Assembly: GCA_963663965.2 (NCBI GenBank)
Contig: CAXXFK010000013.1
Span: forward strand, 160,001-224,000
Direction: 5' to 3'
DNA from: Sedimentisphaerales bacterium
Lineage (GTDB): Bacteria > Planctomycetota > Phycisphaerae > Sedimentisphaerales > SM23-30
Length of the DNA stretch: 64,000 nt
In this document: positions 36,473 through 45,490 of the stretch, in pieces
Position numbering within the stretch: the first letter of the stretch is position 1
How the letters are laid out: every line of letters starts with the position of its first letter
The notes under the pieces: model-generated
Told to the model about the DNA's origin: nothing
The model's database searches: none
Seen by the model: only the letters and a program-made list of their open reading frames with translations
Position numbers and translations under genes: made by a program

Positions 36473-37936
36473 GTGGATCGACGCTATTTTCTGAAATTAT
36501 CCGCCTGTTCGTTACTTCGGCGGCCATTCCGGCTGTGAGCCGGGCCCAATCGCCCAAAAAGCTCAATATGCTGTTTATTCTGGTGGATGACCTGGGATGG
36601 ACCGACCTGGGGTGTTTTGGCAGTTCGTTCTATGAAACGCCGAATCTGGATAAGTTCTGTACCGAGAGTATGAAATTTACCAACGCGTATGCCGCCTGTC
36701 CGGTTTGTTCGCCGACCCGGGCGAGTATTATGACGGGTAAGTATCCGGCGCGAACGGCTAATACGGACTGGTTTGGCGCGCCGCAAGCCGGAGGACGGCC
36801 AAGAACCACTGGACGCGCAATAAGCCGCTGCTGCCGGCTTCTTATTCGGAGAATATGGCGCTGGAAGAGGTGGACGCTGGCGGAGGGCTTTTAAAGCGGG
36901 TGGGTACTCGGACCTTTTTTGCCGGGAAATGGCATTTGGGTGAGACGGAAGCCTACTGGCCGGAACATCAGGGGTTTGATATCAACAAGGGAGGGCATTT
37001 TAAAGGATCGCCGCCGGGCGGTTTATTTTGCGCCGTGGGATAATCCGCGGCTGGAAAACGGGCCGGATGGAGAGCATCTGCCGGATCGGCTGGCCCGTGA
37101 GACGATTCAGTTTTATTCGTGAAAACCGGGATAAGCCGTTTCTGGCTTACCTGTCGTTTTATTCGGTGCATACACCGCTGCAGAGCCGGGAGGATCTGAA
37201 ACAGAAGTATCTGGATAAGAAGAAACGGCTGGGGCTGAAGGCCGGAATGGAAACCGGAAGGGGATCGGCAGGCGCGGCAGGTGCAGGAGCATGCTGTGTA
37301 CGCGGGGATGGTGGAGGCGATGGATCTGGCAGTGGGGAAGGTGCTGGATTACGATTACGGAGTTGGGGCTGGATGGTCAGACGGCAGTGTTTTTCATGTC
37401 TGACAATGGCGGGCTGTCGACTTCGGAAGGATCGCCCACTTCCAATTTGCCGTTGCGGGCGGGGAAGGGATGGCTGTATGAAGGCGGGATTCGTGAGCCG
37501 ATGATGATCCGGTGGCCGGGAGTGACGAAGCCGGGCAGTGTGTGTGAGGAGCCGGTGATCAGTACCGATTTTTATCCTACGATGCTGGAGATGGCGGGAT
37601 TACCCGGGCGGCCTGATCAGCATGTGGATGGTAAGAGTCTGGCTCCGTTACTACACGGCCGGCGGATGACGCGGGGGGCCGATCTACTGGCATTATCCCC
37701 ATTACGGCAACCAGGGTGGCGCGCCGGGTGCGGCGATACGTGAAGGTGACTGGAAGCTGATCGAATGGTTTGAGGATAATCGGCTGGAACTATATAATTT
37801 GAAAGATGATATTGGCGAACAGTATAACCTGGTATCGGCCAAGCCGCAGCTTGCCGGGAAGCTGCATCGGCAGCTTAAGGCCTGGCAAAAACAGGTTAAC
37901 GCACGTTTCCCAACTAAGAATCCTGATGCCCAATGA
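36473..37936 (+). CDS. Sulfatase (Cys-type) with Tat-like signal; multiple single-base frameshifts
   Basis: MDRRYFLK start after [56 protein letters not shown]. Fragmented ORFs. Confidence 0.8.
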
Positions 37937-40024: not shown

Positions 40025-41439
40025 ATGAATAAAACAGCCTACCAACTCATCGTTTTTTTGATTATTGGACCTGGGTGTCTGGCCAATGGCGCTTTGGCAA
40101 AAATTGAGCCGGCAAAACCCAACATTGTCATTATTGTCGCGGATGACCTGGGGTGGGGAGATGTCGGTTTTCATGGAAGCCAGATAAAAACCCCCAACAT
40201 TGACACACTGGCAGAAACTGGAATCGTTCTGGATCGATTTTATGTCGCCCCGGTTTGCACACCCACCCGGGCCGGATTATTAACCGGTAAATACCCCAAT
40301 CGCTTCGGAGTAAGAGAGGTGGTCATTCCACCTTGGCGCGATTTTGGAATCGCGCCGGAAGAGGTGTTTCTGCCTGAGGAACTGGCCAGGGCGGGTTATA
40401 AGAACCGGGCCATTATCGGCAAATGGCATCTGGGACATTCGAGCAGGAAATACTATCCACTGAACCAGGGATTTACCCATTTTTATGGTCATCTCAACGG
40501 CGCGATCGACTATTTCACGCATGAACGGGAAGGCGAATTGGACTGGCACAACGACTGGGAGAGTTCGTACGACAGGGCTACTCAACCGATCTGCTCGCGG
40601 GTCACGCGGTCCAATGCATTAACGAATATTCCAAAGAGGGGCCGTTTTTCCTGTATGTTGCCTTTAACGCGCCGCACAGCCCATTCCAAGCCAAGGATGA
40701 AGACCTTGAACTTTATGGTTTTGACAAAAGCAAACCGCGCTTTGGCAGAGGCGATACACGAGGGCATGGCAATACCATTCAACAAACCTATTCGGCCATG
40801 GTGACGGCCATGGATCGTGGGGTAGGCGAAATTCGCGAGGCATTAAAAACAAAAGGATTGGATGAAAACACCCTCCTGTTGTTTTTCAGCGATAATGGCG
40901 CCGACACGGAGGGTGGCGGGGGATCGTGCGCGCCATTGAGGGGGCAGAAGTTTTATGAGTTCGAAGGGGGTGTGCGCGTGCCGGCATTAATGTCCTGGCC
41001 GGCACGATTGAAAGGGAGCCGGAAAATCGATCAGGTTACCGGTTTTTGTGGATGTCATGCCGACGATTCTGGAGATGGTCGGCATGAAATCGGAGGTGGC
41101 ATTCGATGGAATCAGTATGGCTGCCGTATTGACCGGCGAGCAGGAAAAAATCGACCGGGAGTTGTATCTTGGACTGGGGGCTGCGGTAACCAATGACTGG
41201 AAATTTATTGAAAAGGGTCATAACAATCGAATCAAGATCCGATGTTGACTTGTTGTTCGAAATCAGTCAAGATCCATCTGAGCATTGGAACCTGATTACC
41301 CAAAACCAGGCAGAAGCAATGGCGCTGAAAGAATTTGTCAGCCAATACGATGCCATTGTGGCCCCCGGCAGTATTGCCGCCTTTTAATGAGGGGAAAGAT
41401 GGTTTTAAGGCGCCGAAAGAATGGAAAGTTGAGAATTAG
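40025..41439 (+). CDS. Arylsulfatase (ARSB-like, Cys-type); several single-base frameshifts
   Basis: Signal peptide; PNIVIIVADDLGWGD; CTPTRAG; GKWHLG; FNAPHSP in an alternate frame; FFSDNG; EGGVRVP. Confidence 0.8.
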
Positions 41440-41445
41440 ATAATC

Positions 41446-41640
41446 TCAGGGCGGTCAAGCCGCAACCAAAGAAGAAATAGTTCACACAAAGCCACTAAGC
41501 CACGAAGATAAACAGCCATTTAGACAGGATAATCCCGATCCCGATGGCTCGGGATTTCGCCTTGCTCAATATCCGGGACTTTCAGCTGATCGACAGGATA
41601 AAAAGCTTGTTAAGAAAACAAAGAAATAATGGATTGTAGT
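41446..41640. repeat. Composite nested-hairpin dispersed repeat, copy 1
   Basis: Core 41511-41589 matches 58066-58144 at 77/79; flanks are also similar. Confidence 0.88.
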
Positions 41641-41728
41641 ACAGAAGAATTGAAATAAAATATAATTCACCGTGGAAGTGGAGGTAGTGGAGAAACAGCC
41701 TGATATTAAAAAATATAACAGCCGTTTT

Positions 41729-42325
41729 AACCGCAGATCCCGATGTACATCGGGGACAGATGAACGCAGATGAAGAAAGGGATCATAATGGGGAAACCTA
41801 AGTAGGAGGCGAGGAACGAACCGGTTGGCGGAGGCGGTGATGTGGATATTGGTGGGGAAAACCTGGGACAGACACCTGTTAAATTAGCGAGATGCGAAAA
41901 AGATAAGTCAGAAACAGGCGACTGTCCCTAGTATTAAGACCAACGCTCCTATCATTAGTACTAGCTCCTGAACTCAACTGATCGAGATAATTTGAAAAAT
42001 TAATAGACTTGGCTTCAAGGTTGATACTGTAGTCATTTCGGAAACCAATGAATAGAGTATGCTTGGGATGCTCGCTATTAGCAGTATACCTGAGGAATGT
42101 CTCATTTTTATCATTAATATAGCCTTTGAGCTTTGAGCGGACTGCATCTTCTTCAATATGGCTTAATTTAATTGTATAGGAATTTGTATTTGTGGATAAC
42201 TCTAGCCCCGGATGTAAATCCGGGGATGAATATTTGCTTTTTGACAGGATTTACAGGATGATCAGGATAAGATGCAAAATCCTGTTAATCCTGTCGGAAA
42301 AAGAAGTCCCGCCGAAGGCGGTTAA
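41729..42325. repeat. Cluster of several small palindromic REP-like elements
   Basis: CCCGATgtacATCGGG (~41739); GGGACAGACACCTGTT...AACAGGCGACTGTCCC (41865-41928); TAGCCCCGGATgtaaATCCGGGG (42203-42225); GACAGGATTTACAGGAT...ATCCTGTTAATCCTGTC (42243-42295); CCGCCgaaGGCGG (~42308). Confidence 0.75.
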
Positions 42326-42495
42326 GTTCTTACCCATCTAACTGGCCGTTACGATAAAACAGGATGTTTTATATCTTGAAATTGGGATTGAATTATGGTA
42401 AAAGGATAAGAGATTGGAGAAAATGCAAAGTGAGGAAACCGGTCATTTTCAGTCGTATGATGTTAATATAGATAAACTTTTTAGGAGTGCTTGCA

Positions 42496-43572
42496 GTGAA
42501 AAAGAGGATTATTGTCTGGTTTGCAGTATTACTGAGTTTTGCTGGTATGGTTCAGGCGGAGTGCCCATCTATGGACATTACCGGCGATTGTAAGGTGAAC
42601 CTGGAAGATTTTGCCGTTATGGCTGCCGGGTGGCTGGAGGACTACCCAATTAAATGAATTCGCTGATCTGACGTTGCAGTGGCTGGAGGAAGAAATCCCC
42701 GACCCGGCGGCGTATGGTCATTTGTCAACATTCCCGGCGGGACGTTTGATATGGGCGATCATTTCAATGAAGGTTGGCCAGATGAACGCCCCGTTCATAC
42801 GGTTACGCTGAGCAGTTTTCAGATGAGCAAGTATGAGATCACGAATGACCAATATCGGGATTATCTCAACGCGGCGTTAGCTGCCAGTCAGATAACAGTA
42901 TTTAATAACCGTGTTTACGCGATAAGTGACACCAGTCATTCCCAGCCTTATTTCGTAACTCATGAAGCAGATTCAGACAGCCAGATAAGCTATAATATCA
43001 GCGGCAGCTTTTACACCCGTAGCAAAAATGGCCGCAATATGGTTAATGACCCGGTGGTGATGGTCAGTTGGTATGGGGCCAAGGTTTTTTGTGACTATTA
43101 CGGCTATAAACTGCCCACCGAGGCCCAGTGGGAATATGCCGCCCGGGGTGGCCAGCAGAATCCCTACTATCGCTTTCCCTGGGGCAATATGATCAATCAC
43201 GACTATGCGAATTATAGAGCTAATGGCAGCGCCTATAGCTATGATACCAGCCCCTACAGCAGTTACACCTTTCATCCCAACTGGAATGATGGTACCGATC
43301 CCTACACTGCCCCAGTGGGCAGCTTCCCAGTTAATGGTTATGGCTTATGTGATATGACCGGCAATGTCATGGAGTGGTGTAGTGACTGGTATAGTTCATC
43401 ATACTATAGTTCCAGTCCATCCACTAATCCAACTGGGCCTATCAGTGGTAGTTATCGCGTGGTTCGCGGCGGCCATTGGGGCTCCTACGCCTACGGCTGT
43501 CGGGTGGCCTACCGGGGTGGCTACCCGGGCCTCTCGAGCGGCTACTACTGCGGGTTTCGGGTGTGTCGTTGA
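42496..43572 (+). CDS. Secreted FGE-sulfatase/SUMF1-like (CLec-fold) protein with N-terminal dockerin-like motif; probable DGR target; apparent indels at ~42645 and ~42715
   Basis: GTG start after AGGAG: MKKRIIVWFAVLLSFAGMVQAECPSMDITGDCKVNLEDFAVMAAGWL; then IPGGTFDMG, MSKYEITN, LPTEAQWEYAARGG, NGYGLCDMTGNVMEWC, RVVRGG.W, GFRV. Confidence 0.85.
43456..43569 (+). other. Putative DGR variable region (VR)
   Basis: Only 8 A in 114 nt, none at codon position 3; non-scaffold codons are nearly all NNC/NNT; located at the CLec C-terminus. Confidence 0.7.
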
Positions 43573-43842
43573 GTGTTTTTTCTCCTGGATTTTCCGTAAC
43601 CCTTTGCCCTGAGCGTAGCGAAGGACCGAAAATTTTTTGAAAAATGAGTAAAAAAGATAGTGAGTCTTTACGTAATTTAATATCAGAGCGATTTTGACCA
43701 GCGCCAAAGAATAAGAAACGAATTTCTGATACGATAGAATTTCAAGCACTCAAAGCAAATGGCTCTGATGATGTAACTGATTTACATATAGCAATTTGCC
43801 AGAAAAAACGTGGGAGAGTTTTGTCTTGATGATGTCTCTTTG

Positions 43843-43871
43843 TTGACACATTTGAGTGAATTTATTACATT
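43843..43871 (+). promoter_or_regulatory. Possible sigma70 promoter of the downstream sulfatase
   Basis: TTGACA-N17-TACATT. Confidence 0.4.
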
Positions 43872-43917
43872 AACAGGGGTGAAACGAGAAACAAACAGAT
43901 AATCAAGGGAAGCACTG

Positions 43918-45490
43918 ATGATGCGAGCAGAATTGAACAGGCGGCTGTTTTTGAAGGCGAGTGGGTTGGGGGTGGTGTCGGTGGTTATGCGGAATGGGGA
44001 TGAGGCGGCAGCGGCCGGGGGAATGGGGGTGCGGGCGGCCCCATGTTTTGATTATTCATGCCGATGAGCATCGCATGGACTGCCTCGGCGCTTACGGCAA
44101 TCAGGATGTCAAAACCCCTCATATCGACGGGCTGGCGGCGGATGGTGAGCGTTTTGTCCACAGCTTTTGCCCGTTCCCGGTTTGCACGCCTTCGCGGTAT
44201 TCCCTGTTGAGCGGGTTGTATGCCCACGAGCACGGCGGCTGGTCGAATCATTGCAGCATAGCGGCTGAGACGGCCACGTTTCCGAAGATTCTGCGGGCGG
44301 GCGGGTATAAAACCAAGGCGATTGGCAAGATGCACTTTACCCCGACTTACCTGGATGTGGGGTTCGATGAGATGGAGCTATCGGAACAGGATGGGCCGGG
44401 CCGATGGGATGATGATTACCACCGTTATCTGATGGCCAGAGACCTGGTGGACTCCAACGACCTGGAAGACCAGCGGTCGGAATTTCGCCGGAAAGCCGGC
44501 GCCCGATATTTCGAGACCTTTGGCGCGATGGAATCGAATCTGTCCGATGAGCATTCCAACACCACCTGGATTGGCGACCGGGTGGCGGAGACGCTGGAGG
44601 GGTGGGATGAGAAACAGCCGAGCCTGCTGATGGCGGGATTTGTCAAGCCGCACCATCCGTTCGATCCGCCGGCGCCCTGGGATACGATGTACGATCCGGA
44701 AAAGCTGGCGCTTCTGCCGGGCTGGACAGAAACCTCTTTCGAACACGACCTTAAATACAGCCGGGGCTATTTCGATAATGCCAGCCTGACGGAACCGGCC
44801 ATGCGGAAGGTGATGGCCTATTATTACGCTACGATTTCGCAGATCGATTTTCAGGTGGGGCGTATGATCAAGATCCTTAAGGATAAGGGGTTGTACGACA
44901 ATACGCTGATTATCTATACCTCGGACCATGGCGACTATATGGGGTATCACCATATGATCCTGAAAGGGAACTACCTCTATGAGGCGCTGGCCAAGGTGCC
45001 GTTGATTATCAAATGGCCGAAAAGCAAGAACGCGGGAACGGTTTCGAGCAAACTGGTTAATAATATCGACCTGGCTCCGACGATCTGTCATCTGGTGCAA
45101 CTGCCGCCGGCCAAGACGATGCGGGGTAAGGATCTGGCCAAGGATCCGGGCCATGACATCATCTTTTGCGAGTCGGGGCCCAACCAGGTGATGGCGAGGA
45201 CACAGAGATACAAGCTGATACTGGCGGGGCCGCGCAACGCCAACCTGTTCTATGATCTTGAGGCCGACCCGCTGGAGCGGAATAATCTATACGACAACCC
45301 GGCATACCAAGACAGGATAGCCGAACTCGAAACAAAATTGAATGACTGGCGTCGCGTGGGGCCATGGCCCGAGCCATCGACGGAAGGCCCGATTATCAAG
45401 GGTGAGAATGTTCCGCCGGCCGACCTGAGCCACCGGGGCGCTATTATCGATTACTACACGCGGAAGATGGCTGAAATGCAGACCAGGTGA
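43918..45490 (+). CDS. Sulfatase (choline/arylsulfatase-like) with Tat signal; apparent indel in the 5' G-run region
   Basis: MMRAELNRRLFLK Tat motif is out of frame with RPHVLIIHADEHR; CTPSRYS; GKMH; KPHHP; SDHGD. Confidence 0.85.

What the first reader, a model, noticed from the sequence alone, without database searches (positions are those of the whole stretch)
42496..43640. Probable remote DGR target: dockerin-bearing secreted CLec/FGE-fold protein with an adenine-stripped variable region
Seen: the last 38 codons (43456-43569) have only 8 adenines in 114 nt, none at position 3. Scaffold residues (RV.RGG.W, CRVA.R, GFRV) use A-free codons. Nearly all intervening codons end in C or T (GGC TCC TAC, TAC GGC, GGT GGC TAC, AGC GGC TAC TAC TGC). 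The upstream gene body uses A freely. After the stop come a pyrimidine tract, a GC-GTA-GC mini-hairpin and AAAATTTTTT. Established: DGRs mutate template adenines, typically in AAC codons, into a C-terminal VR of CLec-fold proteins, and the FGE-type subclass is a known target. Inference: this is a DGR target served in trans, since no RT, Avd or TR was found in the window. The signal peptide plus dockerin-like N-terminus suggests a hypervariable ligand-binding module docked on a surface complex, located among sulfatases.
Basis: partly seen in the sequence, partly recalled or inferred. Interest (0 to 1): 0.85.

Follow-up and report, generated by a model that had tools for sequence, protein, structure and literature searches.

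The report
Orphaned DGR target with intact signals
This gene's tip was rewritten by a mutagenic reverse-transcriptase system (a diversity-generating retroelement, DGR) of a kind still complete in related bacteria, but this genome has deleted its own copy of that machinery, so the gene is most likely a frozen leftover, a known state.

Summary
The last 38 codons have 8 A in 114 nt, the only such 3' end among 2,952 long ORFs of the genome. The gene belongs to a real DGR-target family. Two same-family genomes carry complete target-avd-RT-TR cassettes with the same C-terminal scaffold and post-stop IMH, plus remote targets. 'Served in trans' is not supported. The assembly (94.6% complete) has no DGR RT, Avd or template. 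None of 12 templates from relatives is cognate (19-40 non-A differences), and low-depth contigs show no variation. The genome's orthologous DGR locus (C1:212 kb) has lost about 1.6 kb (avd, RT, TR); its VR-IMH is joined directly to the template's 3' tail. Best reading: an orphaned, frozen target. A cassette missing from the assembly remains possible, because the VR looks fresh and the C1 relic is not cognate. As assembled the gene is split at 42645-42720, probably by sequencing error. The genome has no cohesin match and the FGE catalytic cysteines are absent. Orphan targets are in print (Treponema), and this scan noted them before on other DNA.

The parts
42496..42558 (+). Signal-peptide-like N-terminus (21 aa, GTG start)
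   Evidence: Sequence, by eye; no predictor was available. Homologues have similar N-termini.
42562..42657 (+). Dockerin-like (EF-hand-type) repeat; frame ends at TGA 42655-42657 as assembled
   Evidence: No Pfam hit for the fragment. The G013 homologue hits Dockerin_1 at E=0.095, below cut-off. My motif is in 64 of 120 homologues.
42645..42720 (+). Linker broken by clustered frameshifts in the assembly (error or real decay, unresolved)
   Evidence: Another frame here resembles the linkers of intact paralogues and homologues. No listed long contig piece covers 42647-42720; X1 contigs differ from the window by single-base indels elsewhere (42303, 44032).
42721..43572 (+). Non-catalytic FGE-type C-type-lectin-fold domain
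   Evidence: PF03781 E=3e-58. Model pLDDT 93; Foldseek hits FGE and TvpA 2y3c. FGE cysteine motif missing.
43450..43569 (+). DGR variable region (VR)
   Evidence: 8 A in the last 114 nt. 12 of 15 codons at family AAC sites end in C, against 34% in the body (p=3e-4). Against the G013 TR, 29 of 39 A sites changed and 19 of 102 non-A sites.
43552..43593 (+). IMH: GC-rich end of VR plus conserved post-stop sequence, VR-type (G) variant
   Evidence: The pattern finds 13 sites in 7 of 261 order genomes, 0 in the reversed control. 2 sites are TRs (C variant), 11 are the G variant.
43594..43607 (+). Pyrimidine tract, about 22-26 nt shorter than in most family targets
   Evidence: Stop-to-loop distance is 43 nt, against 66-69 nt in other GFRVCR-type targets.
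43608..43624 (+). Imperfect hairpin with GTA loop, same type as after the G013 targets
   Evidence: Unique in the genome; same core after the G013, G015 and G153 targets.
43644..43697 (+). 17-codon ORF at the position where avd starts in complete cassettes; possible degraded Avd stub (weak)
   Evidence: Position matches avd starts and stubs in G013, G017 and C30. Sequence likeness is slight and was not scored.

Best explanation
The gene encodes (or encoded) a secreted protein of about 350 aa: signal peptide, dockerin-like repeat and a non-catalytic FGE/C-type-lectin domain whose C-terminal binding surface was written by DGR mutagenic retrohoming. In that process an Avd-RT complex copies an AAC-rich template (TR), substitutes at adenines, and the cDNA replaces the VR from the IMH. 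Shown: VR footprint, IMH and hairpin, and homology to cognate targets of complete cassettes in the same family. Shown: this assembly has no RT, Avd or TR, and its orthologous cassette has lost them. Inferred: the loss happened by recombination between IMH and IMH* (direct repeats), or the gene arrived already orphaned from a related DGR-bearing lineage. Inferred: the VR is now fixed, so the protein is a single-specificity extracellular binder of unknown ligand, provided the linker frameshifts are sequencing errors.
For: VR statistics. Complete cassettes G013:C80 and G017:C15 share the scaffold and IMH; RT and Avd families confirmed. The three closest non-self loci are G013's cognate targets (67-69% aa). 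K/E/Q/M/W fill 50 of 1,635 AAC-type sites in 109 of 120 homologues, against 13.8% in the bodies. No DGR RT among 9 RVT_1 matches, no Avd, no TR. C1 scar: orthologous target (69% aa to G017's) and the same downstream gene, about 1.6 kb missing; the tail after its IMH matches TR tails (62/100, 57/100), not VR tails (30/100, 29/100). A single-contig genome of the order (G042) also holds such a target without a matching TR. Orphan targets are described in T. denticola (PMC4891356, passages).
Against: The VR looks fresh: no third-position A, 21 of 38 codons end in C, IMH and hairpin kept. The C1 relic differs from this VR at 15 of 67 sites fixed in the two family TRs, so it is not shown to have been this gene's template. 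The assembly is 94.6% complete in 42 contigs. Run X1 has depth 2-4 with holes and may be the source sample, so absence of TR and of variants is weak evidence. No near-identical copy exists to test for variation (best non-self hit 70%). The gene is split as assembled.
Confidence: 0.6

Rival explanations
1. Active remote target. A second, cognate avd-RT-TR cassette lies in the unassembled part of the genome or in a subpopulation and still rewrites this VR in trans.
For: Fresh-looking VR and intact cis elements. Remote targets are normal in this family: G013:C132 differs from its TR at 2 of 105 non-A sites. G013 carries two different DGRs. Structural variants with intact RT/TR are reported for Thiohalocapsa (PMC10907252, passages).
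Against: No fragment of a DGR RT or Avd by tblastn at E<=1. Nothing but the gene's own contig was laid on 43419-43721 in three runs at 80% likeness. The four target-like genes of G000 differ from each other at 7-17 of 67 scaffold sites, so they do not share one present template. No cognate TR in the metagenome, genome or viral pattern scans or among 12 TRs of relatives.
Confidence: 0.3
2. Decaying pseudogene: the linker frameshifts are real, so no secreted protein is made, and the target is being lost after its DGR.
For: Stop at 42655 and clustered frame changes; shortened pyrimidine tract.
Against: The 850-nt FGE frame is clean and matched without substitution by X1 contigs over 42721-43140 and 43113-44500. 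The break falls in a coverage hole. X1 contigs show indels against the window elsewhere, including one near the start of the next sulfatase ORF (44032). Neighbouring sulfatase ORFs are also fragmented.
Confidence: 0.07
3. An ordinary FGE-like protein (or sulfatase-activating enzyme) whose A-poor end is chance or amino-acid bias.
For: Best solved-structure hits are FGEs; sulfatases flank it; several other FGE paralogues also have few third-position A.
Against: Its non-coding post-stop sequence matches the TR ends of real DGRs, with the best score of 23 paralogue ends. The FGE cysteine motif is missing. Sulfatases are abundant genome-wide.
Confidence: 0.03

Closest known systems
Treponema denticola DGR: TvpA (PDB 2y3c), its remote targets and its orphan 'leftover' targets
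   Same: Exported FGE-type CLec variable protein, several dispersed targets, targets persisting in genomes without RT and TR (PMC4891356, passages; structure hit).
   Different: The family cassette here uses Avd (target-avd-RT-TR); the N-terminus is a dockerin-like or Ig-like module rather than a lipoprotein anchor; the loss junction is visible at C1.
avd-RT-TR DGRs with remote targets, Architecture B of Wu et al. 2018 (PMC5758913, passages)
   Same: Core order in G013 and G017; AAC-rich TR; IMH/IMH*; 3-nt VR indels (this VR has one codon fewer before the Pro and one more after it).
   Different: No cognate TR is known for this gene, so it fails their criterion for a non-adjacent target.
Degenerate DGR loci of Thiohalocapsa PB-PSB1 (PMC10907252, passages)
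   Same: Targets with missing machinery; some served in trans, some not.
   Different: There the genome keeps complete cassettes and targets are linked to conflict systems; here none is found and the target stands alone.
Formylglycine-generating enzyme (PF03781; PDB 2q17, 6muj)
   Same: Fold, TM-score about 0.7, 33% identity.
   Different: The cysteine-bearing active-site segment is replaced by the VR.

Membership tests
DGR target gene (VR-bearing) | C-terminal VR in a CLec-fold domain | tested here: met
   PF03781, model and TvpA hit
DGR target gene (VR-bearing) | Codon footprint of AAC mutagenesis | tested here: met
   12 of 15 NNC, p=3e-4; most A-poor end of 2,952 ORFs
DGR target gene (VR-bearing) | IMH at the VR 3' end, homologous to IMH* of a TR | tested here: met
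DGR target gene (VR-bearing) | Downstream GC-rich hairpin (7-10 bp stem, GRNA loop in phage DGRs; PMC3240598 passages) | tested here: inconclusive
   Imperfect stem with GTA loop, weak fold, but the same type as after G013's cognate targets
Active remote DGR target | TR in the same genome differing only at adenines | tested here: not met
   assembly 94.6% complete
Active remote DGR target | DGR RT and accessory gene in the genome | tested here: not met
   9 RVT_1 matches, none DGR-like; no Avd
Active remote DGR target | Population variation restricted to TR-adenine positions | tested here: inconclusive
   One contig at depth 4, 0 substitutions; contigs drop rare variants
Catalytic FGE (sulfatase-modifying factor) | Active-site cysteine pair | tested here: not met
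   Alignment to 6muj/2q17; the catalytic role of that segment is recalled knowledge
Cohesin-dockerin surface complex | Dockerin_1 match over cut-off | tested here: not met
   No hit for the fragment; homologue 13.4 bits against cut-off 22.9; the frameshift truncates the query
Cohesin-dockerin surface complex | Cohesin partner in the genome | tested here: not met
   0 PF00963 matches at E<=0.01; a divergent partner would be missed
Secreted protein | Cleavable signal peptide | not testable with these tools
   By eye only

The most novel reading that the evidence does not exclude
In this lineage a DGR diversifies a dispersed repertoire of secreted lectin-fold binders that share a dockerin-like tag with dozens of other secreted proteins. 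The avd-RT-TR engine is then excised precisely at the IMH/IMH* junction, freezing the selected specificities. Recurrent engine gain and IMH-directed loss would act as an off switch. One such junction was seen (G000:C1); a search of 251 order genomes with it found no second one.
Probability: 0.12. Interest if true: 0.6.

Novelty: new member of a known kind. Interest (0 to 1): 0.3.

Why it matters
It documents an avd-RT-TR DGR lineage with dispersed, secreted, dockerin-like-tagged targets in Phycisphaerae/Sedimentisphaerales-type bacteria. My searches found no paper with both 'diversity-generating retroelement' and 'Phycisphaer' and one unrelated paper with the DGR term plus 'dockerin'; large survey supplements, not read, may list them. 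It also shows a readable junction for how a DGR engine is lost. In practice these genes are annotated as FGE although they lack the catalytic segment. None of this changes the known DGR mechanism.

Tried and rejected
Template search in G000 by blastn, an A-tolerant tile scan, an AAC-codon scan and a pattern search: nothing. Avd by two families and DGR RT by tblastn: nothing. Viral contigs with the IMH pattern: 0. Metagenome scan: 4 loci, three with target-like ends and no TR in the part of the output seen, one out of register. Genome scan: 7 loci, one a chance match in an actinomycete. Sequencing runs: no RNA holder listed; X2 and X3 do not cover the VR. Protein search: no relative above 70%, so strain variation could not be tested. 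The tandem hits on G008:C167 looked like VR plus TR but are two target genes. A second excision scar was sought in 251 genomes and not found; only 3 candidates per genome were scored. The single-sequence fold job was never collected; the alignment-based model was used. Link to flanking sulfatases and a cohesin partner: rejected. Paper search gave nothing new; the two papers were seen as listings only.

Full report
Observation. The window is G000:C13:160001-224000 of a 7.24-Mb, 42-contig assembly, 94.6% complete. The last 38 codons (43456-43569) hold 8 A, none at position 3, against 192 A in the preceding 735 nt (p=1.4e-6). Of 2,952 long ORFs with normal overall A content, only this one ends with 8 A or fewer. 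Of 27 PF03781 matches in the genome I examined 24 and left out three partial N-terminal ones; one of the 24 had no GFR end. The window gene has the fewest A, the rest 11-43. Several paralogues also lack third-position A, so that feature alone is not specific.

Gene structure. As assembled, the frame from GTG 42496 stops at 42655-42657 and the FGE frame runs 42679-43572. Between them another frame resembles the linkers of intact paralogues on C30 and of database homologues of 330-370 aa, so the ancestral gene was one ORF. Contigs of run X1 match 42239-42646, 42721-43140 and 43113-44500 without substitutions, leave the break uncovered, and show single-base indels against the window at 42303 and 44032. 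Error in a low-depth spot is therefore likely but not shown. The domain is PF03781, folds confidently (pLDDT 93) like FGE and TvpA, and lacks the cysteine-bearing segment of catalytic FGEs.

It is a DGR-type target. A DNA search of 61 genomes gave matches in 21, several covering the non-coding bases after the stop. G013:C80 and G017:C15 (same family) hold complete cassettes: Avd (NF033474), an RT, and an AAC-rich TR of the same length and scaffold as the window VR, read through by the RT frame. Their targets differ from the TR almost only at adenines (G013: 1 and 2 of 105 non-A sites; G017: 6 of 104). Same-locus pairs overall differ at 1-9 sites among pairs kept at 12 or fewer. An IMH pattern finds 13 sites in 7 of 261 order genomes and none in the reversed control; two are TRs, eleven are target-type, and two of those are in G000. 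At the 15 codons that are AAC in both TRs, the window has NNC in 12 (ungapped; body 34%; p=3e-4), and its post-stop sequence scores highest of 23 paralogue ends. The three closest non-self loci to the window domain are G013's cognate targets (67-69%). In 109 of 120 homologues in register, residues that NNC/NNT cannot encode fill 50 of 1,635 such sites, against 13.8% in the bodies. Named records carrying the same end are mostly Phycisphaerae/Planctomycetota MAGs.

No engine was found. The nine RVT_1 matches in G000 read as group II intron-type (8) or retron-like (1), judged by eye; family DGR RTs hit them at only 24-28%. Two Avd families find nothing and four template searches find nothing. This RT type was found in 4 of 24 other family genomes and 10 of 401 class genomes. 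None of 12 distinct TRs recovered is cognate: 19-40 non-A differences, the best being G013 (29 of 39 A sites and 19 of 102 non-A sites changed, with a one-codon shift around the Pro, output partly cut). Only the gene's own contig was laid over the VR and IMH, at depth 4; X1 may be the source sample, so this is weak.

The genome shows how an engine was lost. At G000:C1:212.0-213.5 kb (minus) lies the orthologue of the G017 cassette target (69% over 345 aa), followed by the same downstream gene family and a second target as in G013. In G017 about 1.8 kb separates target and downstream gene; at C1 about 0.2 kb (ORF coordinates). The C1 target keeps a mutated VR (22 of 38 TR adenines left, against 20 in G017's VR) and a target-type IMH, then continues into the TR's 3' tail: 62 and 57 of 100 identical to the two TR tails, 30 and 29 to the VR tails. 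It was the only target-type IMH site with such a tail among the 12 listed. I infer deletion between IMH and IMH*. Against a simple story: the C1 VR differs from the window VR at 15 of 67 scaffold sites, and the four target-like genes compared differ pairwise at 7-17. Either the loss is old and the window VR has stayed unusually clean, or the gene came from another cassette. G042, a single-contig genome, has a similar target and only a non-matching DGR, so orphans occur without assembly gaps.

Function. Shown: fold, loss of the catalytic segment, VR footprint. Inferred: secretion (signal peptide by eye) and ligand binding through the VR, as for Mtd and TvpA (established knowledge; PMC5758913 passages). 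The dockerin-like tag is common here (54 Dockerin_1 matches; 96 motif hits) with no cohesin match, so its partner is unknown. One species of the order does have a two-cohesin protein (PMC11557425, passages). Sulfatases are abundant genome-wide (81 matches) and the flanks are not conserved.

What is known. All papers were seen as passages only; no supplements were read. T. denticola isolates without RT and TR keep target genes, called leftovers (PMC4891356). Thiohalocapsa has degenerate loci, some served in trans (PMC10907252). Remote targets, avd-RT-TR order and 3-nt indels are catalogued (PMC5758913); hairpin rules are in PMC3240598; PMC8144416 notes that metagenome surveys miss remote targets. 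Earlier notes of this scan describe orphan targets in five other genomes, one in a Sedimentisphaera; my reading was recorded before I saw them. Searches showed no description of DGRs in this class or of an IMH-junction scar, within the library searched.

Verdict. A real DGR target; most likely orphaned (0.6), possibly still served by an unassembled cassette (0.3). New member of a known kind; interest 0.3.

Noticed in passing
G000:C1:212005-213526 (-), locus L069: DGR excision scar: target VR-IMH joined to the TR 3' tail; avd, RT and TR missing relative to G017. A second, frameshifted target lies at C1:207.1-208.2 kb.
   Followed up: yes
G000:C30:311353-312600 and 315944-317038 (L070): Two intact paralogous targets. 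The first has a perfect 8-bp GTA-loop hairpin followed by a short ORF resembling an Avd N-terminus.
   Followed up: partly
G000:C15:150590, C32:104120, C18:27187, C30:20670: Further FGE genes with excess NNC codons at template sites but little or no IMH: probably older DGR relics.
   Followed up: partly
L073 (G042:C1:2053226-2056861): DGR whose target ends in a VR followed by a PEP-CTERM-like tail (motif name recalled, not tested).
   Followed up: no
L025:11575-13038, L026:8520-9920: The RT reading frame continues without a stop through the whole TR in both cassettes.
   Followed up: no
L025/L051 (G013:C80, C78): One genome with two DGRs of different TR, each with several targets; two targets are followed by 9-codon Avd stubs.
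   Followed up: partly
L034:339-4526: A 1,396-aa protein with three tandem FGE domains, each ending in a VR-like segment.
   Followed up: no
L059 (G272:C208): Different architecture: VR, hairpin, then TR directly, upstream of the RT.
   Followed up: no
window 41400-41750: Intergenic repeat elements with about 100 blastn matches across the genome.
   Followed up: no
G000:C2, C6, C21, C25, C28; C42:144541: Five equal-scoring copies of a group II intron-type RT, and a retron-like RT (labels by eye).
   Followed up: no
window 36535-37743, 40025-41196, 43919-45490: Sulfatase genes split across frames, consistent with indel errors in this assembly.
   Followed up: partly
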